A stretch of DNA of 64,000 bases from Lytechinus pictus. Its lineage: Eukaryota. This document shows, one piece after another, positions 43,198 through 60,730 of the stretch. Below the pieces are notes generated by a model. The model saw nothing but the letters and a program-made list of their open reading frames with translations. It ran no database searches and was not told where the DNA came from. Both the position numbers and the translations under genes were made by a program. The first letter of the stretch is position 1, and each line of letters starts with the position of its first letter. Location: assembly GCF_037042905.1 (NCBI RefSeq), contig NC_087252.1, positions 3,412,001 to 3,476,000 on the forward strand, in the 5' to 3' direction.

Positions 43198-44970
43198 TTA
43201 TACTCTTGAAAGAGCATCAGCAATTACATTATTCTTTCCCTTTATGTGTAAATTTTTCAAAGGGAATGGTTGGAGCATAAGGCTCCATCTATACAGTTGT
43301 TGATTCTTTGTTTTGAATTTCTCCAAAAACCCAAGAGGATTGTGGTCTGTATAGACTGTAATCTCTCCATTGGTTAGATACACCTCAAACTGCTGAAGGG
43401 CTAGTACGAGACTCAGGGTCTCTTTTTCAATAGTTGAGTACTTCTTCTGAAACCGATTGAGTTTCTTAAAGAAGTAGCACACTGGTTTTTCGATGCCTTC
43501 TTCATCTTCTTGGAGCAATACTGCTCCTACTCCAACATTACATGCATCAATAGCTACTTTGAACGGCTTTGTGAAGTTTGGAGCTGCCAAAACAGTCTCA
43601 TTTACCAAAATGGCCTTTAATTTCTCAGATGATCTCTGACATTCGTCAGACCAAACATATTTCACTTTTGCCTTCAGCAGGTTTGTCAGAGGGCTATCCA
43701 CTGTACTGTAATTTGGAACAAATTTCCTGTAGAAGCCACTCGTACCTAAGAATCTAAGCAATTCTTTCTTAGTTGTGGGAATTGTGAAGTCTAAGATAGC
43801 TTGTATCTTGGCTTCTCTTGGTAGCACTTGCCCTTGACCAACCACATGACCAAGATATGCGACCTTTGCCTTGGCAAATTCACTCTTCATCAGATTCACT
43901 ACTAGGTTGGCTATATCAAGCCTGTCAAACAGTGCTCTTAAATGATCTAGATGATCATTCCAAGTATCACTGTACACTAGGATGTCATCTATGTACACGA
44001 CACAATTGTCAAGCCCAGCAATCACTTGATTTGTTAATCTTTGGAAAGTTGCTGGTGCATTTTTCATTCCAAAAGGCACGACTTTGCATTGAAATAAGCC
44101 TTCGGGTGTAACAAAGGCTGATATCTCTTTGGCTCGGTCAGTCAGTGGCACTTGCCAATATCCTTTAAGCAAGTCTATCTTTGTGATATAGGCAGAATTT
44201 CCAACTCTATCAATACAATCTTCTAACCTAGGAATTGGATACGAGTCAGTCTTAGTTACTGCATTTACCTTTCGGTAATCAATGCAAAATCTCTGAGAGC
44301 CGTCTGGCTTTGGAACAATTGGAATAGGAGAATCTAACATTATCTAACATAAAATGTATTTCCTTATTCACCATTTCCAACTTGCTTGGACTGAGCCTAT
44401 AAGGATTCTGTTTGATAGGTCTTACATCACCTACGTCTACATCATGTACAGTTAAAGGTGTACGCCCTGGTGTGTCTTTACACACATTCTCATATTCTCT
44501 AAACAGGCCAGATATAGCAATTCTTTGATCTTCAGGCAGGTGTTTTGATGCCTCATCCATATTTCTAGCATCTCTGAGTTAGACAACTTTACACCACATG
44601 GTTCATTCTTAGATACATCTTTATAAGACAATTCATTATCTGTCTTTCCATAGCATTTTTCTTCATCTACATTTACACGTTTCTTGTCTTCTTTGACCTG
44701 TGTTGAACCTATTTGCTGACTAGCCTCTCGCTCAAAATATTCGTTCAACATGTTTACATGACAAACTCTTTGAGACTTTCTTCGATCAGGGGTACTGATC
44801 AAATAGTTGACATCATTCAGTTTCCTTTTGACTATGTAGGGACCACTAAACCTAGCTTTCAATGGCTCACCTTGCAAAGGCAACAACACTAATACTTTGT
44901 CTCCAGGCTTGAAACTTCGCTCTTTTGCATTTTTGTCAGCTTTAGCTTTCATTTTTCCTTGCGACACTTT
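43198..44970 (-). pseudogene. pol: Gypsy element A pol, 3' part: integrase GPY/F tail, RT, RNase H (frameshifted)
   Basis: ARFSGPY; PIKQNPYR; FCIDYRKVN, KIDLLKGYWQ, PFGMKNAPATFQ, YIDD, YSTIEKE, TDHNPL, NVIADALSR. Confidence 0.92.
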
Positions 44971-45438
44971 CACAATTGGCGCCTCACTCGTGCGATAATT
45001 TTTTTTTTCGAAAATATTTGTTCCGTCCTGTTGTAGAAGTGTTGTCTTTGAGTCGCAAGCAATATATAAAATCGTACGAGAGGTGAACGACCACTGCACC
45101 AGGATACATCAGTCGTGAGACGTAATCGTGCGATTATTTTCATGTTTCCGGGTGCAACAGTCGTACAACGGTTGCAACGGTTGAACGATGATGCGACCAA
45201 GTCGTACGACATATGCGTTTTGTAGCGCCATATGTCGCGCGACCTAGCGACCCGTTGTACGACTACTACAACCGATCGTACAAGGCTACGACCCATTGTG
45301 CGACACACCGCACCACCTGTCGCGCGAGGTGTTGGCCTATAAATACGACACGCGATGCGACTTTCTTCATTACAACCGCTGATGCCTGACGAGACGCTGC
45401 TACAGTGAACAAGACACAACCAAAATACAAGCATCGGC

Positions 45439-46457
45439 ATGGCCCCAAAGAAGTCAAGGAAAAAGAGGAAAAATCAGCCTGATGAGGAGGAAGGGCCCCA
45501 GCCTATACCCGTGGCCGAGGAGAAAGCTACTGCTTCTGTCATAGCTGGTGATGAGGGTGATGAATTTGGTGAAGCCCAGACCGAGGATGATGAAATGCTG
45601 CAGGAAGGGGGCCAAGATCCACCAGCCGCCGCCAGTGATGAGAACAACGTGACAGATGGCCATGCTACCTGCGGTATCACCAAAGCCATGGAGCAGGAGC
45701 TGGCGAAGTTTTTCGCTGACAATGAGTTCATCTACGACAAGAGCAAGGTGGACTTCAAAAACTCTAAGAAGAAGGAGCGCAAGTACATGGAGATGGCGGA
45801 AAAGCTGGGAGTCACCGGTAAGTAGTAGCTGAAAAATATGCACATTCCGATTTATTGATGATGTTTATTAGTTAAACATGCCAATTTTTTGGATGTTGAC
45901 TAATTTCTTGCTTCTACATTTTGTATATTTTCAGTGGCCGACATCAGACTATGGTATAAAAGCCAGAGGACCATCCTGGGGAAGATGAAGACCGCTGGAA
46001 AGAAGAGTGGTCAGAAGGCCATCGTCCTTACCCCCAGGCAGAGATGGGTCAATAACAACCTTGGTTTTCTGACGAAGCACATAGTCCATCGGTCACAGGG
46101 CTGACAACTGACAACCGCTACCAGGATCGGGCGGACCACCTTTCCACCACCCCAGTATCTCGCCCCAGCACTCCCCAGATGATCCAGCCACTCAGGCCTC
46201 AGTCAGCGCCGATCGGCTTCACCCAGGACGCTCCACCAAGCAGCACCTGGACCCCTCAGAACCCTCAGGGAGGATTTCAGCAGCCCAATTTACAGGCCCC
46301 CTTCCAGCAGCAGCGTGCCCCCTTCCAGCAGCAGCACCCCCACTTCCAGCAAAAACAGCAGGCCCCCTTTCAGCAGCAGCAGCAAGGAGGCAGCAACAGC
46401 GCCAACACATCAATAATCACCCAGTTGAACTTGTCAGATGAAGAAGATGAACAGTGA
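45439..46457 (+). pseudogene. Harbinger Myb/SANT (MADF-like) DNA-binding protein
   Basis: Exon 45439-45817, intron GT45818..AG45934: FFADNEFIYDKSKVDFKN..MAEKLGVT|VADIRLWYKSQRTILGK..KSGQ..LTPRQRWV; stop at 46104, Gln-rich tail beyond it suggests an internal deletion. Confidence 0.8.
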
Positions 46458-46828
46458 ACTTTTGTTAGGATTGTTTTTATTGTTACTTGACGAACTCTCT
46501 CAACTCAAATTATAATTTGACTATTTTGGAACGTTTATTTCAAACTTTTTTAAACATTTACTCGGTGAATAGAATTCATTTTCGTTAACAAAATGTCTTG
46601 GAAAAATATATAATTTTTAAAACAACATGATTAATTTGTTATATCTGTACATCTTTTTTATTCTCATAAATCACATTTTTTCAAACATGTTCTCCTTCAT
46701 TATTTTATTTCAAACACATGTTATTAAGGAGAGTTAACTTTTTAAATTTCAAACTACCTTTCGATGTAAAAGTAATGTATGTTTAAAATAACTGTTGACA
46801 TGGTCATTCATTTCTACTTTGAAATGAT

Positions 46829-48190
46829 TCATTCCACAAAATCAGTCTGTGCTGTATCCCAAGTACATGTAGTGCGCCAAGTGGCAGTGTATATCATGTG
46901 TTGTTGCCAGGGCAGGCTTCCAACTGGACTGTTGTAGTAGTGCTTCAGGTAAGTTCTCAGCTTCTTGCCCTCTTTGTTTGCCTGGTAGCCTCCGCCAACT
47001 CGTTCAACATCCTGCAGAACTGCTGCGTTTCTCCATGCCCCAGGGATGTGGTTGCCCAACTCATCTTCATGGTCAACGTCAATGTTCTGAAGCCCAGGAA
47101 AACGATCTCTCATTAGGTTGTGGAGGCACATGCAGGCCATAATGACTGTCCTGGCTTTTTCTGGATCAAGATGTAGGGTACTCAACAAGCATCTCCAGCG
47201 ATGGGCAAGGATGCCAAAGCTGTTCTCCACCACACGGCGAGCCCTCGAGAGACGGTAGTTGAAGATTATCTTCTCGTCGGTCTGCTCACGGTTGGAGTAC
47301 GGCTTCTGCATCCATGTCCTGAGAGGGAAGGCGTCGTCCCCAATTAAGAAGTAAGGGGTGTCTCGGTCATTATCTGGCAGGGGCTCTGGATCTGGCAGGC
47401 CAAGAGTACCATTCTCCAGTCCACGTCTCAGCGGGCTGTGGTTGAAGACCTGGGCATCCGATGATGAACCGGGATTACCAACGTCAGCCCAGAGGAACTT
47501 GTAATTGCCATCAACTAGGGCCAAGAGGATGAGGCTGTATAAACCCTTGTAGTTGTAGTAGATCGTACCAGAGCCTGGTGGATTTCTGATGGCCACGTGT
47601 TTTCCATCCAAGGCTCCGCAGACATGATGAAAGTTCCATCTGTCAGCGTAAGTCCGTGCCACTTCTCTCCATTCATCTGGGGTAGTTGGACAGGAAAATA
47701 CTTCATCTTGGTATTAACTGATGATGGCTTGGCACACCTCTGGTATAAACAGAGAGATGGTATTATGGGCAACACGGAAGGCATACTGCAGGGTTTTGTA
47801 GCTGTTGCCGGTCGCAAGATATCTCAAGGTGATGGCCAGTTTGAGCCCAGGATCCAGTGGCTGCCGGTAGCGATAGGACTTCTCTATCCTCGGAGTGATG
47901 CGCTGCAACAGTTCAAGGAACGTTTCTGGTGGCATCCTCATGTAGTTCAGGAAGTAACCCTGACATTCTCTCTGCAACTCCGTCATCAGATTATCATACT
48001 GTCCAAACAGCACACGTCTCTCAATCCAGGGTTTGACCCACCACCTTCTTCTTTGCCTTGCATGTCTTTGACGTCTACGGATGAGTAAGGCCATCAATAT
48101 GACATGTCTGTCTTGAACGTTTTGGATTTGCCTTCTCAGACTTAGCAAATGCAAGAGCCTCCCGGGAGCTATTGGTCGAGCAGCAGCCAT
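46829..48190 (-). pseudogene. Harbinger (HARBI1-like) DDE transposase with one frameshift
   Basis: WWVKPW, NYMRM, KLAITLRYLATG; GALDGKH, YYNYKG, IGDDAFPL, FNYRLSRARRVVENSFGIL, CLHN; frameshift near 47700. Confidence 0.92.
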
Positions 48191-48657
48191 GTTTACAGTC
48201 TGGATGGTCCAGACATTTGGGATGAAAGCTCAGGAGTTCTCGAGCTTATATTGGGGGTGAAAAAAAATCGCACAACGTTGCAAAGGGGGCAAGACAGGTC
48301 TTCCAATAGTATTAGGGTGGTACAACTGACTCGTACGACAGGATGCATCATCGTACGACATGAAAATAATCGTGCAACACTCGTTCGGGGTCTTACGAGT
48401 GCGTGCAAAGTCGCACAACACTCGTACTGCCTGTCGTGCAATTATTCTTCATCGCGTCAGTCGCTCAAAATATCGGAGCAGCACGGTTTTTTTTCCCGAC
48501 CGAGATGCGACCATTTTGTCGCATCTGGATCGTACAATAAGTGGTACAACGGCTACAACGAGTCGTACAACGGGAAAATTTTCGAGTCGCAAGCCGTTGT
48601 AGTCTGTTTGGCAACAATTGTGAAAGGGGCTTTAGCCACATCACAAGCTTTTGAGAG

Positions 48658-50049
48658 TGTTAAGAATTCAACCTTCTTCCCCTATGCTATCCCCTATTGT
48701 TATGCACAATTAAGTCCTGGGACTGAATAAACCATTGTTCGGCTCCAGTCCACTCTCCCTGGCTTAACAGGTGGAACATTTTTGCATTGGGTGCGTTGCC
48801 TTACCAAGCACTTAGGCTTCACTATCTGCTCAGAAGTCAAACAGGGAGGACCTATGGGTCAATTCTTGGTTCAGAAATGTTATTGGAAAATTGAAGTTTT
48901 AAACTGAATTTAGGGCAGATAGCGCTGCATTTTTCGTTTCAAGCATCAAGAACATTACTGTTGAGATTTGAGGCCTTCCTGATGATTTCCTGCCTTTAGT
49001 CACAGACGTCAAACTGTAAGTGAAAATGATTTTGATTCATTTTGTATTTTGAATGTGTCTTTGAGAAAGTCAAGGTCATTAAAAGGACCATTGAATTTTA
49101 TATTAAAAAAAAAAGTGCTAGTTTATAAATTTAATTAATGTCATGTTAATTAATAATTTATATGAAGAAGTTGAGTTATTCCAGAACACAGATTCATTAA
49201 CTTTTAAATCTCAGACATCAGAAAGGATTTTGTAAAAGAAATGCCTTTAGGAAGGAGTCATTTTTGTGTTATATATGTGAAACATTTTGAGGACTGATCA
49301 TGCTTATTAATCAGTTGTGAAATTGCAAATGAGTATTTTTGAAGATTGGAAGATATTCCTTTGAATACATGAATTAATCTAGGGAATAACATATATGAAT
49401 ATTGTGAAGATTTAAAGATATTATTCCTTAAAATATTTATAGTTTACCAGAATTAATCTAGGGAAGTATATATATGAATATTGTGAAGATTTAAAGATAT
49501 CACTATTCCTGAGATTATTTATAGTTTGGGTAATGTTTGTTTTTAGATGGGTTCCGATTCCAATTCCACTGGTCGTTCCACTGGTTGTTCCAATTCTGGT
49601 TCTGAGTTTGGTTCCAACCGCCGTTCCAGTAGCCGTTCCGGTCCCACTCCCGGCTCCGGCTCCACCATGATTATGACTGTCAAATCCCGCTATGGACAAG
49701 ACTTGTAAAGAGAGTCAGAGGGAAGACAGATCCATCTTCGAATGATGTAACTGTTTAACGATTCGTCAGTATCGATTAATATTGAACTGGAGTGATTATA
49801 TCACCGTATAAAGTGGGTTACCTTGTTTGTTCTTCCAAAGACAATATTTCATATGTTATTTGTACTCTGAAACAACGCCATTGAATCATTGTTCTACAAG
49901 AACCTGAATACAGTTTTAATAAATTCTTTGAACTGTATTTTTATTGTTCATGTAATTATTTCATTTTTATGTCCTCTTGAGTTACTTGGGTGTGACAATT
50001 GGTTGCGAGAATTGATTGTATGTCCTCTTGGGTTGACTCGGGTGTGACA
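48658..50049 (+). repeat. 5' LTR of element B
   Basis: Direct repeat of 55414-56806; about two dozen differences counted by eye (~98% identity). Confidence 0.95.
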
Positions 50050-50051
50050 GT

Positions 50052-50090
50052 TGGGGGCTTGTCCGGGAGTCGAACCCGGGACCTCTCGCA
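50052..50090 (+). promoter_or_regulatory. Primer-binding site, tRNA-Pro (extended, 39 nt)
   Basis: TGGGGGCTTGTCCGGGAGTCGAACCCGGGACCTCTCGCA starts 2 nt after the LTR; reverse complement of the tRNA-Pro 3' half. Confidence 0.9.
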
Positions 50091-50751
50091 AAAATACTTT
50101 GGATATTATGAGGTTGACCTCTCGCAAATTTACTTTGGATATTATGAGGTTGACCTCTCGCAAAATTACTTTGGATATTAAAAGGTTTAACTTTTGCAAA
50201 ATTGTTCGGATATCAGGTTTACCTCTTGCAGATTAATTTGGATATTATATCATGATATTTACCTCTTGCAAAATTGAGTTTGCCGTTTTGTAATGTTTAC
50301 CTCTCATGGAATATGTTTTCCTCTAAGTTAATACTTCTTGCATAGAAAAGATTTTCCTTTAGTGGAATATAATCTTTTGATTGTTTTCCTATTGCAAAGT
50401 GTTTAAATACTCTTAGGAAATATTAGGATTGCTTAAAATGTTTAATATGTGTTGAATACTATACACGCATCATTGGATAAGTTATAGAATGTTTTCATAT
50501 ATGAATAACTTTGACCTTACATGATATGCTACTTCTCTTCCATGGTTTATTGTTCTCTGTATACAGTTGGAATATTTGTGATTCTGTGCTACAGGACAGG
50601 AATCAGAGGCAAGTCTTCAAGTCGGCAGAAGGTGTTCTTGATTCTTTGGTAAGAATAACAATTCTGCATGTGCGCGTTTTGGAAAGGTTTATTCTCTTAC
50701 GTAGAGATATCAATTATCGATACCATAGTCCTGCCTGGTTGAGTTCTCATT

Positions 50752-51693
50752 ATGGATGTTATGGATGAAAAATTTGTTAACTTGGGTAAGGAGTTAGGTT
50801 TAGCAGGTGAAGACTTGTTCGAATTCATTAAGGATAGGGAACAAAAGGCACGAGAAGAAAGAGCAGCTGTTAGGGAAGATAGGAAACAAGAAATTGAGTT
50901 AAAGAAACAGGAATTTGAGTTGAAGAAATTAGAGGAAAATATTCTAGATAAACAGATAGTTCTTGAGCAGGCTAAGAAAGGCAATGAATCTCAGTTAGGA
51001 GATATTAGGAATGGAACCCATAGTTTGACAAAAATCCCAAAGTTACGTCACTTTGATGAAAGTAGAGACAACATAGACGCATACTTAGAGCGTTTTGAAC
51101 GATACGCTAACAGTCAGAGATGGCCAACAGATTGTTGGGCTATTAATTTAGGTGCACTTCTACAAGGGAAGGCTTTGAAGGTCTACAGTAGACTGGCACC
51201 AGATGAAGCTGCTAATTATTCTACTCTCAAGGACGCCCTCCTTCGTAGATATCAGATATCTGCAGATGACTTCCGAAAGAAGTTCTACAGAGCAACGCCA
51301 GAGACAGGAGAGTCTGCTGGTCAGTTTATGGCAAGGTTAGAACACTACTTCGAAACATGGGTAGATCTTACAGACACAGATAAATCATTTGAGGGATTGA
51401 AAGATTTGATAATTAGACAGCAGTTTCTTGAGCAGATTAATCCAGGATTAGCTATTTATTTGAGAGAGCGTACTCCCCAGACTACTAGGGATATGGCTGA
51501 TGCTGCTCAGATTTATATTTCAGCACACGGTGGTCATTTCAAGGGTCCCAGAAAGGACATCAAAGTAATGACACCTCATAAGTCTGAAAACAAGAGTGAA
51601 GCTTTTCATAAGGAAAAGCCTAAGAGTCGAAAGCCAATTGGGCCATGTTATTTGTGTGACCAAATGGGTCATCTTGCAAGAAATTGTAAGTAA
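50752..51693 (+). CDS. gag: Gag (capsid/SCAN-like region and CCHC zinc knuckle), element B
   Basis: IDAYLERFERYA..W..LLQGKA..Y..LKDALLRRY; CYLCDQMGHLARNC; the stop is probably premature. Confidence 0.88.
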   Translation: MDVMDEKFVNLGKELGLAGEDLFEFIKDREQKAREERAAVREDRKQEIELKKQEFELKKLEENILDKQIVLEQAKKGNESQLGDIRNGTHSLTKIPKLRHFDESRDNIDAYLERFERYANSQRWPTDCWAINLGALLQGKALKVYSRLAPDEAANYSTLKDALLRRYQISADDFRKKFYRATPETGESAGQFMARLEHYFETWVDLTDTDKSFEGLKDLIIRQQFLEQINPGLAIYLRERTPQTTRDMADAAQIYISAHGGHFKGPRKDIKVMTPHKSENKSEAFHKEKPKSRKPIGPCYLCDQMGHLARNCK

Positions 51694-51873
51694 AGTTCTA
51701 AACCAAAACCTGAGAAGGGTGGAAGTTTTGTAGATATAGGTACCAAGACCTATAAACAGAGAAAGTCTTCAGTTAAGACTAAATCTCATGATGGAGATAA
51801 TGAGGCGAGTAGAGACTTATGTCTTTCATGTCCTACATGTTCTTCTCCCAAAGTTTTAGATGCTGACAATAGC

Positions 51874-54800
51874 ATGTCTCAGATCGAGAGTGGGTTGTTT
51901 GTCATGATGTCTGCCACAGGCATTGAGCAGGCTAGACCTTCAATGAAACAAAGGAAGAAGAGAATTCTAGAGATATGTGCGACTTGTAAAAGTAAGTTGC
52001 GCTCACTAATGCCTGTTACTAATGGAACTGTAAATTCTGAGACAGTTTCTGTTCTTAGAGACACAGGGTGTACTTGTGTTGTGATTCGGAAGAGACTAGT
52101 CAATAAGGAGCAGATGACAGGGAAATACAAGCTCTGTATTCTCATCGATGGTACTGCACGTTGGTATCCTACTGCTAAGATTCATCTTGATTGTCCTTTG
52201 TATGTAGGATGCATTGTAGCTTTGTGTATGAAAGCTCCAGTGTTTGATGTTATTCTAGGAAATATCCAGAATGTTCTTCCACCAGATGCGCCAAATCCGA
52301 AATGGGGAATTTCAGACTCAGACAGTGATGGTAGAGTTCACCCTTCATCTGAAGTAGGGATGGCAATTGAGACGAGGTCACAAGTGAAAGTTGCTGAGCG
52401 AAAGCAGACTCCACTGAAGGTGATGTCTCCCATTCCAGAGGTTTCCCCTGACAATATCAAGGAAGCGCAGTTAGCAGATCCCACACTCAAGAAGGCAAGA
52501 GAGCTTGCTGAGTCGGAGGATGGCAGCAAGACAGATAGGAAAAATTCTACTTTTCTCCTACAGGATGGTTTGCTGCATAGAGTATTTCAACCGAACAGTG
52601 TTGCGGATGGAAACCAGGTTGTACAGCTTGTAGTGCCGAAGCCATATCGGAAAGCTTTTGTGAAGTTAGCACATGAAGGAATCATGGGCGGACACCAAGG
52701 TGTCAAGAAGACGTCGGATAAGATAATGTTGAGTTTCTTTAGGCCAGGTTTACAGGCCGATGTAAGTAGATTTTGTCAGTCATGGGACATCTGCCAACGA
52801 ACCATCAGCAAGGGCAGAGTCCCTCGTGTTCCTCTTGGTAAGATGCCAGTTATCGACGTTCCTTTTAAGAGGATTGCTGTTGATTTGGTAGGACCAATAC
52901 AGCCAATCACTTCACGGAAGAATAGGTATATTCTCACAGTAGTCGACTGTGCCACAAGGTACCCAGAGGCGGTGGCCTTGCCCAACATAGAGACAACTAA
53001 AGTTGCAGAGGCACTTGTTCAGATATTCTCCAGAGTCGGTGTGCCACAGGAGATTTTGTCAGATCAGGGTACCCAGTTTACCTCTGATCTTATGAGAGAT
53101 ATTGGGAAGTTGCTTTCTATAAAGCGAATGACCACGACCCCATATCACCCGCCTGCAACGGGCTTGTCGAGTGGTTTAATGGCACGTTGAAGAAAATCCT
53201 CCGTAGAATTTGTTCAGACCGTCCCACTGATTGGGATCGGTATCTTGCTCCTATTTTGTTCGCCTACAGAGAGGCTCCACAGGCTTCAATGTGTTTCTCA
53301 CCGTTCGAGCTCCTGTACGGACGTACCGTCAGAGGATCCTTAATGATTCTTAAGGAACTTTGTACTGGTAAGCAACAGAATGAGGAGTTGAAATCAACCT
53401 ACCAGTATGAAGTCGAGCTGAGAGAACGACTAGAATCGACATTGGAAGTAGCACAGCAAGAGCTGAAGAAGTCGATGGAAAGAAGTTCAAAGTACTACAA
53501 CTTGAAGAGTAGGGAGAGAAGATTTCAGGTCGGAGATCAAGTCTTGTTGTTGTTACCCACTGAACACAACAAATTGTTAGTACAGCGGAAAGGTCCGTTC
53601 ACTGTTATGCACAAACTCAGTGATCAGGATTATAGGTTGGACATCAACGGAAAGCTTAAGACTTTCCATGCTAATCTGTTGAAGCGTTATATCAGCAGAG
53701 ATGAAGACGACGAACGTGAAGAGTCTTCTACTAACAGGGAAGATCCAGAGATCGGAGCTCAAGCTACTGTTGTCACTGAGGATGACGACGATGGAGAAAG
53801 TCCTGTGATGGAGAAACCGAAGTCACTTGATATTCAACTCCCTCCGCTAGAAGCGACAGAGACAATTGAAGATGTCTCGGTATGCTTGAACTTATCTCGA
53901 GAACAGAAGTGTGAGGTAAAGTCTTTGTTACAGGGTTACAAGGAGGTCCTTACTGATCTTCCAGGAGAGTGCAATATAGGCACTCATTCACTCAAGTTGA
54001 CTACAGACGAACCTGTGCGTCAGCTACCATATCCTACACCCCATGCTCGCAGGAACACAATCGAAGAAGAAGTCAAGAAGATGCTAGATATGGACGTTAT
54101 CGAGCAATCTGAGTCTCTCTATTCTTCACCGATCGTGTTAGTAAAGAAATCTGATGGGACTAATCGATTCTGCCTGGATTTTCGTCGGTTGAATCGAGTT
54201 ACAGTGTTCGATGCGGAACCTATTCCCAATACCGATGAGATTTTCTCAAGTCTTTCAGGGTGTAGATACTTCTCGAAAGTGGATTTATCCAAAGGGTATT
54301 GGCAAATCCCCTTGTCAAATGATGCTAAGGAAAAGAACGCTTTCCGTAGTCCGAGTGGACTATACCAGTTCCGTAGGATGCCATTCGGCCTTGTGAATGC
54401 GCCGGCAACATTTAGTCGAGTTATGAGGTCACTACTCAATGATATGTCCATCGTTCACAATTACTTGGATGACATACTCATCCATACTAGAACATGGGAG
54501 GAGCATCTTCGTGTTCTGAGAGAAGTTTTCGACAGACTTCGTACATCGGGTTTGACGGCACGACCAAGTAAGTGTCAAATAGGATGTAACCAGATTGAAT
54601 TTCTAGGTCACATCGTGGGAGAGGATAAGCTTCAACCGATGCAAGATAAGGTGGAGAAGGTACGCGATGCTCCACTACCAGAGACCAAGAAGCAGATGAG
54701 ATCTTTCATTGGGATGGTGAACTTCTACCGAAAATTCATCCCGAATTTTGCATCAATCGCCACCCCTCTGACTGACAAGACGAAATGCCGTCAACCAAAC

Positions 54801-55265
54801 AAGCTCATTTGGAGTGAAGCAGACAAGAAAGCATTTCAGCACTTGAAAGACTGTTTGTCGACAGCTCCAATCCTTTGCTTAGCTGACGTTGCTAAGCCAT
54901 TCATCATCCGCACTGATGCCTCAGCAACAGGTATCGGAGCAGTTCTCCTTCAAGAGAAAGAAGAAGGAAAATGCCCTGTCGCATATGCCAGCAGGAAGTT
55001 ACTTCCACGAGAGCAAGCGTACTCAGCGATCAAACGCTAATGTCTTGCGATTGTATGGGGAATCAGCAAGTTCCAGGTATACTTAGATGGACGAGAGTTC
55101 ATACTGGAGACGGACCACAAACCTTTAGTCTACCTCAATCAGTCTAAGTTGACAAATAGTAGGATCATGAGGTGGTCCCTTGCTCTTCAACCCTACAGGT
55201 TCCATATTGAGTCTATACCAGGTTCAGAAAATGTTGGCGCGGATTTCTTAAGCAGGGCAGTTTAA
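51874..55265 (+). pseudogene. pol: Pol of element B: protease-integrase-RT-RNase H
   Basis: LRDTGC; H..GH..CQ.C; VDLVGP, SDQGTQF, frameshift near 53150; KGPF; FCLDFRRLN, YLDD, TDAS, stop at 55040, TDHKPL, GADFLSR. Confidence 0.93.
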
Positions 55266-55400: not shown

Positions 55401-55413
55401 AAGGAGGGGGTGA
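55401..55413 (+). promoter_or_regulatory. Polypurine tract of element B
   Basis: AAGGAGGGGGTGA directly before the 3' LTR. Confidence 0.85.
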
Positions 55414-56806
55414 TGTTAAGGATTCAACCTTCTTCCCCTATGCTATCCCCTAATGTTATGCACAATTAAGTCCTGTGACTGAATAAACCATTGTTAGGCT
55501 CCAGTGCACTCTCCCTGGCTTAACAGGTGGAACATTTTTGCATTGGGTGTGTTGCCTTACCAAGCACTTAGGCTTCACTATCTGCTCAGAAGTCAAACAT
55601 GGAGGACCTATGGGTCAATTCTTGGTTCAGAAATGTTATTGGAAAATTGAAGTTTTAAACTGAATTTAGGGCAGATAGCGCTGCATTTTTCGTTTCAAGC
55701 ATCAAGAACATTACTGTTGAGATTTGAGGCCTTCCTGATGATTTCCTGCCTTTAGTCACAGACGTCAAACTGTAAGTGAAAATGATTTTGATTCATTTTG
55801 TATTTTGAATGTGTCTTTGAGAAAGTCAAGGTCATTAAAAGGACCATTGAATTTTATATTAAAAAAAAAAGTGCTAGTTTATAAATTTAATTAATGTCAT
55901 GTTAATTAATAATTTATATGAATAAGTTGAGTTATTCCAGAACACAGATTCATTAACTTTTAAATCTCAGACATCAGAAAGGATTTTGTAAAAGAAATGC
56001 TTTTAGGAAGGAGTCATTTTTGTGTTATATATGTGAAACATTTTGAGGACTGATCATGCTTATTAATCAGTTGTGAAATTGCAAATGAGTATTTTTGAAG
56101 ATTGGAAGATATTCCTTTGAATACATGAATTAATCTAGGGAATAACATATATGAATATTGTGAAGATTTAAAGATATTGTTCCTTAGAATATTTATAGTT
56201 TACCAGAATTAATCTAAAGAAGTATATATATGAATATTGTGAAGATTTAAAGATATCACTATTCCTTAGATTATTTATAGTTTGGGTAATGTTTGTTTTT
56301 AGATGGGTTCCGATTCCAATTCCACTGGTCGTTCCACTGGTTATTCCAATTCTGGTTCTGAGTTTGGTTCCAACCGCCGTTCCAGTAGCCGTTCCGGTCC
56401 CACTCCCGGCTCCGGCTCCACCATGATTATGACTGTCAAATCCCACTATGGACAAGACTTGTGAAGAGAGTCAGAGGGAAGACAGATCCATCGTCGAATG
56501 ATGTAAATGTTTAACGATTCGTCAGTATCGATTAATATTGAACTGGAGTGATTATATCACCGTATAAAGTGGGTTACCTTGTTTGTTCTTCCAAAGACTT
56601 TTATTTCATATTTTATTTGTACTCTGAAACAATGCCATTGAATCATTGTTCTACAAGAACCTGAATACAGTTTTAATAAATTCTTTGAACTGTATTTTTA
56701 TTGTTCATGTAATTATTTCATTTTTATGTCCTCTTGAGTTACTTGGGTGTGACAATTGGTTGCGAGAATTGATTGTATGTCCTCTTGGGTTGACTCGGGT
56801 GTGACA
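55414..56806 (+). repeat. 3' LTR of element B
   Basis: Direct repeat of 48658-50049. Confidence 0.95.
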
Positions 56807-58000
56807 GAGAGCCTTTCTCTAAATTTTGACACAAATTTTTTTACCATAAACCCCTCTTTGATCAGCTTTAGGGGGCCCCTAACCTCATGACCATAGACCA
56901 ATTCAAATGGACTGAAACCTGTGGACTCATAGGGGAATCCCTAGTTGCAAACAGTAAGAATGAGATCCCTTTATCCCAGTCATCGGGATAGTCTTCACAA
57001 TAAGCCCTAATCATGGTCTTCAGGGTCTGATGATAGTGTTCTAACGCTCCTTGGGACTGTGGGTGATAAGCAGAGGACTTGATCTGCTTTATTCCCAACT
57101 CCTTCATAACTTGCTGAAATATTCCTGACATGAAATTTGACCCTTGGTCAGACTCAATTTTCTTAGGCAGACCATACCGAGTGAAAAACTGCACTAACGT
57201 CTGTACCACTGTTTTTGCAGTGATACTCCTCAAGGGTATCGCCTCTGGAAAACGTGTAGACAAGTCCATAATCGTCAGGAGAAATCTGTGACCCGACCTC
57301 GTTCTGGGTAAGGGTCCCACACAATCAACAAGAACCCTAGTAAAAGGTTCATCAAATGCAGGAAGGGTATCAATGGAGCAGGCATGATAGAAGGCTGTGC
57401 CTTACCAATAATCTGACATGTGTGACATGTCTTACAGAAATGCTTAACATCTTTGTGCATCTTAGGCCAATAGAAATGCCTCATAATTCTATCTTCTGTC
57501 TTCCGGATACCGACATGACCTGCCATAGGTAACTCATGAGCCATTTTCAGAATCTCTGTGCAGTAACAAGAAGGAACTACTACCTGGTGAATTATACACC
57601 AATCTTCGTCAGCTGGTCTCCGGGGTGTTCTCCACTTCCTCATCAAAATATCATCTTTGACATAAAAGCACGCAGGAACCTTATCAGCCTTAGAACATGC
57701 TTTCTGTGACAGGCTTTTCAATTCTGGGTCTGCCTGTTGTGCCTGTACAAGGGAGGATTTACTAAACAAACTATCATTGTTAGCAACAGAGCCTTCAACA
57801 CTATCCCCATTCAAATCCTTGAAAAAGGTTTCAGCTAACCAGACATCAGTAGTCTCTTCTACATCAGCAGATTCCGCATCATCCTTTTCAGCTCTACGAG
57901 TCTGGGACCTAGTAACAACACAATCCGGGAAAATCCCTGGAAAATCTTCCTGCAACAATTCAGTTTCAGCCACCTCAACCGGCTTCTCCGAAACCACTGG
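56807..58000 (-). pseudogene. pol: Gypsy element A integrase (HHCC and core), running into the assembly gap
   Basis: AHELPMAGHVG..FYWP..CKTCHTCQ; TRFPEAIPL, SDQGSNF, YHPQSQGALE; continues FRERLS|KACDVAK across element B. Confidence 0.9.
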
Positions 58001-58200
58001 NNNNNNNNNNNNNNNNNNNNNNNNNNNNNNNNNNNNNNNNNNNNNNNNNNNNNNNNNNNNNNNNNNNNNNNNNNNNNNNNNNNNNNNNNNNNNNNNNNNN
58101 NNNNNNNNNNNNNNNNNNNNNNNNNNNNNNNNNNNNNNNNNNNNNNNNNNNNNNNNNNNNNNNNNNNNNNNNNNNNNNNNNNNNNNNNNNNNNNNNNNNN
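58001..58200. other. Assembly gap
   Basis: 200 N. Confidence 1.
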
Positions 58201-60730
58201 TCGCCAAGATTGCCCTCAGTGATCATTATTTGATATTTACATGTATTGATCTCAAACCAGATGAACCTCTACATAAACTGGCCAAGTACAGAGACTTTAA
58301 GAAATTCGACGAATCCCAATTTCTTGAAGATATTCGTCAATGTAGCATATTGTATAATAATGAACGAAGTGTGTCTGAATCGATTGACCATGATGAAAAT
58401 GTATGGTCAGAATGAGAGCAGGCCTTTTTAGCAATTTGTGACAAACATGCTCCGATCAAACAGATGCGTGTACAAAATAGGTTCAACCCTTGGATAAATA
58501 ATGATATTTTAGAACTCATGTATCAAAGGGATTACTTGAAAGGTAAAGCTGATAAGAGTGATGATTTCAAAGACGAGTACCGCAAGGCAATAAATCTAGT
58601 CACCAGTTCTATCCGTGAAAGTAAAAAGAATTATTTTGATGATATCTCGAACGAATTTAAGAATAATGCTCGTAAGCTCTGGAAGAATATTAACATGGCA
58701 ACCGGTAACTCAAAATTTAGTAACTCTATTCATCATGATCTATCACCCGAATTATTCAATGACTACTTTGCTAATGTTGGTCGCAAAATTGCAAATTATT
58801 TTCATGAAAAAAAAACCTATTTGGAGAAACCCCGACTGTACTCATAGATTTATTTTTGATACGATACCAGACAGTACAGTTTTTAAATTACTATCTGGCT
58901 TAGAGACAAACAGTAACCTTGATATTCTGGGTTTTGATTCGAAATTACTTCGGATAGCTGCGCCACTCATACAAACATCCTTGACATCTGTCTTTAATTA
59001 TTCGCTCAGAAACGGGATCGTTTTTGATGAATGGAAATACTCAAGAGTTACTCCCATCTATAAAGGTAAAGGACCCAAAGATGCGTGTTCCAACTACAGA
59101 CCAATATATGTCGTGTGTCATATAGCTAAGTTAATAGAAAAAATAATCCAATTGAATTTGCACCAGTATTTAATCTCAAATGAACTTATCTCTATTGACC
59201 AATCTGCGTTTTTGAAATCACATTCTACGGTAACATGCCTCCATCGCGTCATCGATGATTGGTACGATGCATTAAATAATCATGATATGGTTGGGGCATG
59301 TTTCCTTGATATATCAAAATGTTTCGACAGTATTAACCATGAATTATTATTGTTTAAGTTGAAGAAATATGGTATTATTGATGTTAAATTTAAATGGTTC
59401 AAATGTTATTTATCTAACAGAAGACAATCTGTCCGATGTCATGGTCTTCAATCTCAACCGATCGATCTTGATATTGGAATTCCACAAGGGGGAGTCATTG
59501 GCCCTGATCTTTTTTTCTTATTTTTATCAATGACATAGTCCAAAGTGTTTCTAAGGGGACTTGTAACATATTTGCTGATGACGTTATTATTTATTGTACT
59601 GATCCATCACTAAACAAGATTGAAGAAAATTTACAAAATTGTATAAATAGTATCACCGCCTGGTATACTGAAAACCGTCTTCAGATAAATGCTTCAAAGA
59701 CTAATGTCATGCTAATCTCTTCGCGTAAATCAAGAAGTAGAGGAGAGCTTAGAGTTAAACTAGATGGAATTGAATTGAAACAAGTAAACAGTGTTAGATA
59801 TTTGGGTGTTAAAGTTTACTGTTATCTTTTGTGGGAAAATCATGTCAAACAACTCTGCAGATCATTATCGTTTAAAGTACATGCACTAAGGCGTTTAAGT
59901 TCTATACTAAATAAGCAATTGTTGAATACATTGTACAAATCTACTATACAACCATGCATTGACTATGGTTGTTCAGTTTGGGGTAATTGCTCTGAGAAAA
60001 ACAGAAACCTTATTCATAAACTTCAAAAAAGAGCAGCCCGGATTATTACCAAACAATTCGATTTTTCTGTAAGTAGCGCCGATCTATTCAAGGAATGAAT
60101 GTGGCAGCCTTTTGAAAAAAGACGTGACTATTTTCTTTGTATATTAGCATATCAATGCATTTATGGGCTTGCACCTTCTAGGTTGTGTAATGAAATTGAA
60201 ATGTATTTTGACAGACATTGTGTTAATACTAGAAATCATAACTCCCTAATCGCAATCTTGCCAAATCCTAATAAGGACATTTTTAAACTCTCATCCAAAT
60301 ATGCTGCTATAAAAGTCTGGAATTCTTTGCCAACATCAACGCAAAATATCCAATCCCTGCAATCTTTTAAACGTGTTTATAAAGCTAGCTTTTTTAACTA
60401 ATGTCATTTTTATTCTTTTATCAATTGTTACCTTACCTCCTGAATATTATTTTTGTCTCATCTCTACATATTCTTTTAGTGAATTATTGATATATACTTT
60501 GTTTTATCTTTTAATTCTCTAAGATTATATTTTGTAGTTTTTATTATGAACTCTCTAGTTACTTTGTTAAATTGTATTTGTTATTTTTAATCTATTTGAT
60601 GAATTTATATATATATATATTTTCAATTTTTTTACCTGTTGTATCAGGACAATGATGTAAAACAGCTGTGCTGATCATGTTTTTATCCTGTATAAATAAA
60701 TTCAAATAAATAAATAAATAAATAAATAAA
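58201..60730 (+). mobile_element. Decayed CR1/L2-group non-LTR retrotransposon (end of APE, RT, 3' UTR)
   Basis: ALSDHY; PWIN; VTPIYKG..NYRPI, FLDISKCFDSINH, GIPQG, IFADD, YLGV, IDYGCSVW, WNSLP; several stops and frameshifts; (TAAA)n tail at ~60705-60730. Confidence 0.9.

What the first reader, a model, noticed from the sequence alone, without database searches (positions are those of the whole stretch)
50052..50090. 39-nt primer-binding site complementary to the entire 3' half of tRNA-Pro, ending at position 38
Seen: the reverse complement is TGCGAGAGGTCCCGGGTTCGACTCCCGGACAAGCCCCCA, i.e. 3' anticodon stem, variable loop, T arm, acceptor strand and CCA. It matches the metazoan tRNA-Pro sequence I recall at 36 of 39 positions. 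Established: a PBS is normally 18 nt or less because plus-strand copying of the primer stops at m1A58, and tRNA-Pro carries m1G37. Inference: the match runs through position 58 and stops just before 37. Either this RT reads through m1A58 and halts at m1G37, or the element is primed by an anticodon-cleaved 3' tRNA half.
Basis: partly seen in the sequence, partly recalled or inferred. Interest (0 to 1): 0.75.

Follow-up and report, generated by a model that had tools for sequence, protein, structure and literature searches.

The report
Double-length tRNA-Pro primer-binding site
A young jumping gene, and several other element families in related animals, carry a 39-base primer site matching the whole 3' half of proline tRNA instead of the usual 18 bases, likely because DNA copying of the primer ran past its normal chemical stop and halted at a second one.

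Summary
Confirmed. Two bases after the 5' LTR of a Gmr1-type Gypsy element (LTRs 98.3% alike, 5-bp target duplication) lies an unbroken complement of tRNA-Pro positions 76 to 38; position 37 is not matched. It is not a single-copy oddity. In public runs of two related organisms, several different LTR ends and leaders join the same 39-mer and leave it at position 38, and a CCA-less, tRNA-gene-like contig matches it exactly. An unrelated metagenome contig has the same 76-38 site for another tRNA-Pro isodecoder. It is not clade-wide: five tRNA-Pro sites in another animal's DNA run 14-19 nt. Best reading (0.55): plus-strand copying passed A58 and stopped at m1G37. That product is a dead end in HIV; here it pairs with the genome, perhaps first through a downstream 48-38 box that is still repeated in the leader. 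A 3' half primer still carries A58, so it does not explain the read-through. No paper found in a limited library. This scan noted the same site elsewhere in this genome (e1-7882086) and a 45-nt tRNA-Thr case in another (e1-7807674).

The parts
48653..48657 (+). Left target-site duplication (GAGAG)
48658..50049 (+). 5' LTR, TG...CA, 1392 nt
   Evidence: 98.3% identical to the 3' LTR
50050..50051 (+). 2-nt spacer between LTR and PBS
50052..50069 (+). Canonical 18-nt part of the PBS, complementary to tRNA-Pro 76-59, including CCA
50070..50090 (+). 21-nt extension complementary to tRNA-Pro 58-38 (T loop, T stem, variable loop, 3' anticodon stem); G37 not matched
   Evidence: 21 of 21 against L001 and L003; shared by several families
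50080..50342 (+). Array of about 8 units (36-nt period in the young part), each headed by a box like the complement of tRNA 48-38; first three boxes perfect, later ones 7-9 of 11
   Evidence: units 4-8 picked by eye
50752..51693 (+). gag with SCAN-like, Retrotrans_gag and zf-CCHC matches; ends at an in-frame stop
51694..53190 (+). Protease region (DTG motif, read from the translation) and integrase (zinc-binding and core), upstream of RT
53088..55040 (+). Integrase C-terminal part, reverse transcriptase and start of RNase H, in another frame; this copy's pol is broken
55401..55410 (+). Polypurine tract
55414..56806 (+). 3' LTR, 1393 nt
56807..56811 (+). Right target-site duplication (GAGAG)

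Best explanation
The element carries a 39-nt primer-binding site that matches tRNA-Pro from its CCA end to position 38, and it is likely a DNA copy of the primer made when plus-strand synthesis ran past A58 and probably halted at m1G37. Shown: the match, its end at 38, its recurrence with different LTR ends and leaders, and its tracking of two isodecoders. Established: retroviral plus-strand synthesis normally stops at m1A58, minor products stop at position 37, m1G blocks AMV RT, and m1A levels vary among tRNAs. Inferred: the primer is full-length tRNA-Pro (UGG or CGG) that is under-methylated at A58 or read through. The 39-nt product, a dead end in HIV, can pair with the minus strand here and finish second-strand transfer. 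It likely first did so through a 48-38 box downstream of a shorter PBS, replacing the spacer with tRNA-templated sequence. Once fused, both the 18-nt and the 39-nt products would be productive, so the long site would be re-copied from tRNA from time to time and stay exact.
For: The end falls at exactly 38 in the window and in L002, a different isodecoder behind a different LTR-like end. In run X1 the graph is unbranched from 50055 to 50090, two other LTR-like ends enter it with CCA, and three leaders leave at 50090 (CCA-bearing depth in 29-31, depth out 31.7). Runs X2 and X3 show a further LTR-like end (X2) and a further leader leaving at 50091. T-loop positions 57 and 59 and acceptor position 68 differ between window and L002 as tRNA isodecoders would, and a CCA-less contig with a T4 run 10 nt behind position 73 fits the window version with 0 other letters; exact T-loop identity is expected from templated copying. 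PMC13191261 section 10: HIV minor stop P5 at ms2t6A37 is not an active template; lentiviruses carry a primer over-extension sequence that rescues shorter over-runs. PMC8062790 passages: tRNA-Pro-UGG has m1G37, AMV RT is blocked by m1G, and m1A fractions vary among tRNAs. Repeat homology in the leader starts exactly at tRNA position 48, the edge of the T stem.
Against: No cDNA intermediate and no tRNA modification was measured. In G001, five tRNA-Pro-primed sites run 18, 19, 19, 18 and 14 nt with no 48-38 box, so A58 of tRNA-Pro is a working stop in another animal; human tRNA-Pro A58 is methylated (PMC11251516 passages). No changed base opposite A58 is seen in the window, L002 or the X1 core contigs, where read-through of a methylated base might leave one. 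The families in X1-X3 may share one origin by descent or recombination, so independent origins could be as few as two. L002 holds no coding region, so it is an LTR element only by its end motif. The boxes may be copies made from an already long PBS; box and spacer conservation differ little, and the comparison is biased. I saw no two-part (unfused) relative myself.
Confidence: 0.55

Rival explanations
1. A rare over-run was fixed once or twice and is carried passively through the genomic RNA. The element works with the ordinary 18-nt stop; the extra 21 nt have no role and spread by descent and by recombination at the shared site.
For: Closest gag relatives elsewhere have canonical sites (0 of 7 examined show a T-loop complement). 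Only 1 element-like hit came from the metagenome scan, and 0 from genome contigs. The X1 leader is nearly identical to the window's (5 other letters), so little time may have passed. An earlier, unchecked scan note reads a 45-nt tRNA-Thr site as such a fossil (e1-7807674).
Against: At least three different leaders and three LTR ends share the exact site. L002 repeats it exactly with another isodecoder. No decay is seen in the extension.
Confidence: 0.22
2. The site is kept by RNA-RNA pairing at initiation: a two-part contact (tRNA 76-66 or 76-59, plus 48-38) as in Ty1 and Ty3, of which the 39-mer is the fused form, with the leader repeats as extra landing boxes.
For: The boxes cover exactly 48-38, pair at about -20 kcal/mol against -6.4 for the anticodon arm, and older boxes keep 9-10 of 11 pairable positions through G:U. 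A contig in organism B fits the box at 50215-50235 with another spacer. Bipartite PBSs are established for Ty1 and Ty3 (PMC5371799 passages). An earlier scan note reports two-part relatives in this genome (e1-7882086; not checked by me).
Against: It does not by itself explain exact T-loop identity, including position 58, which cannot pair if methylated. C-to-T changes are also the commonest neutral change. L002 has no second box near the site. None of five tRNA-Pro sites in G001 has the box. It is compatible with the best explanation and may be its first step.
Confidence: 0.14
3. The primer is an anticodon-cleaved 3' half of tRNA-Pro, whose two single-stranded arms (76-66 and 48-38) flank the T hairpin and anneal without melting a whole tRNA.
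For: The site spans nearly what a 3' half would span, and the 11+11 arm geometry fits. Priming by cleaved tRNA is known, although from 5' pieces (PMC5371799, PMC6317226, PMC10886601 passages).
Against: A 3' half still carries A58, so read-through is needed anyway. Cleavage is expected inside the anticodon loop, not at 37/38 (recalled). HTLV-1 packages a 3' tRNA-Pro fragment but primes with full-length tRNA (PMC11251516 passages). No small-RNA data could be laid.
Confidence: 0.07
4. The match is a separate tRNA retrocopy that landed next to the LTR, or an assembly artefact.
For: 5'-truncated tRNA copies with CCA exist in animal genomes (recalled).
Against: It sits 2 nt from the LTR end, exactly where a PBS belongs, no other PBS was seen there, and independent runs join LTR ends to it.
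Confidence: 0.02

Closest known systems
Lentiviral and spumaviral primer over-extension sequence; HIV-1 plus-strand strong-stop products P3-P5 (PMC13191261, section 10 read whole)
   Same: Genome sequence just behind the 18-nt PBS that is complementary to the tRNA beyond position 58; a minor product that stops at a modified position 37.
   Different: There the over-run that can be rescued reaches only 55-54 and the position-37 product is inactive. Here complementarity is continuous to 38, in an LTR retrotransposon, with tRNA-Pro and presumably m1G37.
Canonical 18-nt tRNA-Pro PBS (HTLV-1, PMC11251516 passages; Gypsy elements in G001)
   Same: Same primer tRNA, same position behind the LTR, starts at CCA.
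   Different: Stops at 59-58; here 21 nt longer.
Bipartite PBS of yeast Ty1 and Ty3 (PMC5371799 passages)
   Same: tRNA contacts beyond the acceptor strand; separate boxes on the genomic RNA.
   Different: tRNA-iMet, with T and D arm contacts in separate segments; a title in that review's reference list says the Ty1 primer sequence is not inherited. Here one unbroken complement that tracks the isodecoder, plus repeated 48-38 boxes.
Half-tRNA priming of copia, Ty5, Osser, Bianca and fungal Helenus (PMC5371799, PMC6317226, PMC10886601 passages)
   Same: The anticodon region marks a boundary of the primer site.
   Different: Those prime from the 3' end of a 5' piece and their PBS does not begin at CCA; this site begins at CCA and covers the 3' half.
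Gmr1-like Ty3/Gypsy elements (definition from PMC3587641 and PMC4592553 passages)
   Same: Integrase upstream of RT, SCAN-like gag.
   Different: The relatives I could read have PBSs of about 18 nt, so the long site is not a clade character.

Membership tests
Gmr1-like Ty3/Gypsy | Integrase upstream of reverse transcriptase | tested here: met
   rve and Integrase_H2C2 in 51694-53190, RVT_1 and RNase H after; definition
Gmr1-like Ty3/Gypsy | Gypsy-type pol domains and SCAN-like gag | tested here: met
   RT_RNaseH_2, Integrase_H2C2, Integrase_p58_C; SCAN E 1.6e-4, below its curated cut-off
Gmr1-like Ty3/Gypsy | RT tree placement with named Gmr1 elements | not tested
   no named reference sequence was fetched
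tRNA primer-binding site | Lies 0-5 nt behind the 5' LTR and begins with the complement of CCA | tested here: met
tRNA primer-binding site (canonical) | Complementarity ends at or before position 59 (18 nt or less) | tested here: not met
   runs to 38
Primer over-extension sequence | Genome complement to tRNA beyond 58, directly behind the PBS | tested here: met
   definition
Primer over-extension sequence | Rescues over-extended plus-strand strong-stop DNA in strand transfer | not testable with these tools
   needs cDNA end mapping
Bipartite PBS (Ty1/Ty3 type) | Two separate segments pairing with different tRNA arms | tested here: inconclusive
   main site is continuous; separate 48-38 boxes lie downstream; no unfused relative seen
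Half-tRNA priming (copia/Ty5 type) | PBS matches the anticodon arm of a 5' fragment and not CCA | tested here: not met
Priming by a 3' tRNA half | A 3' half is the RNA joined to minus-strand DNA | not testable with these tools
   no small-RNA or particle data

The most novel reading that the evidence does not exclude
A sublineage of Gmr1-type retrotransposons has moved its plus-strand strong stop from m1A58 to m1G37. Its RT reads through m1A58, or it picks A58-unmethylated tRNA-Pro, and it uses the 39-nt copy, a dead end in HIV, as its regular strand-transfer sequence, renewing a half-tRNA-long PBS in every cycle.
Probability: 0.3. Interest if true: 0.78.

Novelty: new variant of a known kind. 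Interest (0 to 1): 0.55.

Why it matters
The 18-nt limit of a PBS is textbook and rests on m1A58. Elements that keep a site twice as long, ending at the next RT-blocking base, would show that the strong-stop point can evolve, and that a product lethal to HIV replication can be made productive by genome sequence alone. It would also make PBS length a genomic record of how fully a germline tRNA is methylated at A58. The question is directly testable: a genome survey separates a host trait from an element trait, and cDNA end mapping shows the stop. If the site is only a fixed accident, it is a neat fossil of RT over-run and little more.

Tried and rejected
No whole genome is held for this window, so family copies, host tRNA genes and the share of long versus short sites in the host could not be counted; laying the 39-mer cannot show short-site relatives. 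Rfam gave no tRNA call for the half. Protein scans of viral contigs found no relative. The long-site pattern gave 0 hits in genome contigs and 2 in metagenomes, one of them an ordinary tRNA gene with encoded CCA (L003). A two-part pattern gave 1 hit in viral contigs, not an element. In G001 the extension pattern gave 0 hits. A generic long-PBS pattern gave 7 hits against 7 for the control; only one has a full T stem, and it coincides with a tRNA gene called. Folding of 49990-50330 is no better than shuffles (z -0.72). Box versus spacer conservation was inconclusive. No RNA holder was listed; RNA run X22 laid 9 reads, too few to say anything. Summed contig depth over the PBS in X2 and X3 was not used as a copy number, because tRNA genes and overlapping contigs add to it. 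Paper searches found no description of a 39-nt or routinely long PBS; one search concerned modification levels. The library lacks most subscription papers and Repbase reports, and the original Gmr1 papers were not read. Chance, and a free tRNA retrocopy, were rejected.

Full report
The element. The finding lies in a complete LTR retrotransposon. Its LTRs span 48658-50049 and 55414-56806, 98.3% identical, with GAGAG duplicated at both ends and a purine tract at 55401-55410. Pfam gives a SCAN-like gag with a zinc knuckle, then integrase before reverse transcriptase and RNase H. That is the Gmr1-type order as defined in PMC3587641 and PMC4592553 (passages). No tree was built. This copy's pol is broken by an in-frame stop after gag and by frame changes. 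Unchecked scan notes on the same genome call the host a sea urchin (e.g. e1-7880839); I did not test this, and no genome was held for my session.

The observation. After a 2-nt spacer, 50052-50090 is the complement of tRNA-Pro 76-38. I numbered it against two tRNA-Pro(UGG) genes fetched by tools, L001 and L003. It matches 21 of 21 positions over 58-38, 27 of 28 over 65-38 and 4 of 8 over the variable acceptor strand 66-73, but only 3 of 12 over 37-26, with G37 the first mismatch. The chance of the 21-mer in register is about 2e-15. The distal 11 nt also head a 36-nt tandem repeat of 4.8 copies. Related boxes go on to about 50342: three perfect, five with 7-9 of 11 (units picked by eye). Homology between units starts at tRNA position 48, the edge of the T stem.

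Is it only this copy? Twenty runs of two organisms hold part of 49600-51600, none half of its words, so they are relatives or divergent copies. I laid 4 of the 24 listed runs on 49800-50400. In X1, 9 contigs were laid. Two core contigs cover 50052-50084 and 50055-50090 with 0 other letters. Two contigs enter from LTR-like ends unlike the window's and carry CCA. One 643-nt contig enters at position 73 without CCA, with 0 other letters over 73-44 and a T4 run 10 nt behind, which I read as a tRNA gene. Three contigs leave at 50090: one with the window's leader and two others that agree with each other at only 0.63, so at most one of them can be a tRNA 5' half. Depth arithmetic fits both being elements: 29-31 in with CCA, 31.7 out (a rough sum). 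X2 and X3 show contigs with A-runs before 50053 or 50054 (tRNA genes with terminators) and another leader leaving at 50091. X2 also shows another LTR-like end and an 89-nt contig joining the window-type LTR to the first repeat. Eighteen loose ends and 87 pieces were not shown, and human-like contigs are filtered. Only sequences that carry the long site can be laid, so there is no denominator.

Is it elsewhere? An exact-pattern scan of metagenome contigs gave 2 hits. L003 is a tRNA gene in a tRNA cluster and runs on through the anticodon, a useful control. L002 has an AATAAA, an LTR-like end, 3 nt, and then 39 nt complementary to tRNA-Pro 76-38, differing from the window at 57, 59 and 68 and ending at 38; no gag or pol follows, and no second box lies near. 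So the same boundary appears with a second isodecoder.

Is it routine? No. A gag profile found one locus in a bacterial MAG that carries animal DNA (L004, G001), which holds 17 gag matches. For 7 of them I assigned a PBS; 0 of 7 show a T-loop complement after position 18. Of 7 hits to the tRNA-Pro PBS start, two lie in what look like bacterial genes. The other five run 18, 19, 19, 18 and 14 nt and have no 48-38 box within 700 nt (best 6-9 of 11). A generic long-site pattern was at control level, 7 versus 7. Kojima 2024 (PMC10886601; passages, supplement search and one supplement part) lists animal Gypsy and Helenus sites, shown only to about 20 nt. Its tRNA-Pro cases break off early, and the 48-38 box does not occur in the supplement.

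Mechanism. PMC13191261 (passages and section 10 whole) states that plus-strand synthesis stops at m1A58, and that minor HIV products stop at 55, 54 and ms2t6A37. The last is not an active template, and lentiviruses carry a primer over-extension sequence that rescues the shorter over-runs. PMC8062790 (passages) reports m1G37 on tRNA-Pro-UGG (53% in yeast; not detected on human Pro-AGG), a block of AMV RT by m1G, and variable m1A fractions. PMC10275265 (passages) confirms that m1G37 is widespread. From this I infer that the 39-mer is a plus-strand copy of the primer that passed A58 and stopped before G37. Exact identity through the T loop in two isodecoders fits templated copying better than selection on RNA pairing. 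For such a product to survive it needs a partner on the minus strand. The 48-38 boxes offer one (about -20 kcal/mol): pairing at a box behind a shorter PBS would replace the spacer with tRNA sequence and give the fused site. After that, short and long products both fit. The reverse order, boxes copied from an already long site, is not excluded. The two-part origin was suggested by my repeat analysis and by note e1-7882086, whose unfused relatives I could not see.

Against this reading: nothing was measured; tRNA-Pro A58 is a working stop in G001 and is methylated in human cells (PMC11251516 passages); no misincorporation is seen at 58; the number of independent origins may be two; and the long site folds on itself (-14.5 kcal/mol), which could be a cost or a switch. 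The 3' half model does not remove the A58 problem. Known half-tRNA priming uses 5' pieces (PMC5371799, PMC6317226, PMC10886601 passages).

Novelty. Nine searches for long or unusual PBSs found no description of a half-tRNA-long site. The library is limited, and Repbase entries and the original Gmr1 papers were not seen. This scan noted the same site on another piece of this genome (e1-7882086) and a 45-nt tRNA-Thr site in another genome (e1-7807674); both are unchecked leads. It works like an extreme primer over-extension sequence; it is not a canonical PBS and not copia-type half-tRNA priming. Verdict: real, recurrent, a new variant of a known kind; interest 0.55.

Noticed in passing
window 50061-50400, run X1: A leader nearly identical to the window's (5 other letters) is present, but no laid contig joins it to the window-type LTR end; two other LTR-like ends enter the site. 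LTRs and leaders may be swapped between families at the shared 39-mer.
   Followed up: no
window 50110-50126 and 50146-50162: Each young repeat unit puts GAGGT just before ACCTC, a short inverted repeat that could hide the box in a hairpin or be a DNA-binding site.
   Followed up: partly
window 44452-45108 and 56868-58222 (- strand): Pieces of a second, older Gypsy integrase on the minus strand flank this element and the transposon below, which suggests nested insertions.
   Followed up: partly
window 45400-48300: Harbinger/PIF-like transposon: DDE_Tnp_4 match on the minus strand and small ORFs on the plus strand.
   Followed up: no
window 58416-60098: Broken LINE-type reverse transcriptase; a 200-N gap lies at 58001-58200.
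   Followed up: no
window 49366-49527: A 79-nt tandem duplication inside both LTRs.
   Followed up: no
L004 1-4768: RT/RNase H end, one LTR-like stretch, PBS, then gag: tandem elements sharing an LTR, or a collapsed assembly.
   Followed up: no
G001: A bacterial MAG in the genome collection holds 17 matches to an animal retrotransposon gag, so it carries much animal DNA.
   Followed up: partly
L007 about 110-175: The LTR end appears twice, 30 nt apart, the first followed by a short TGG stretch and the second by the PBS.
   Followed up: no
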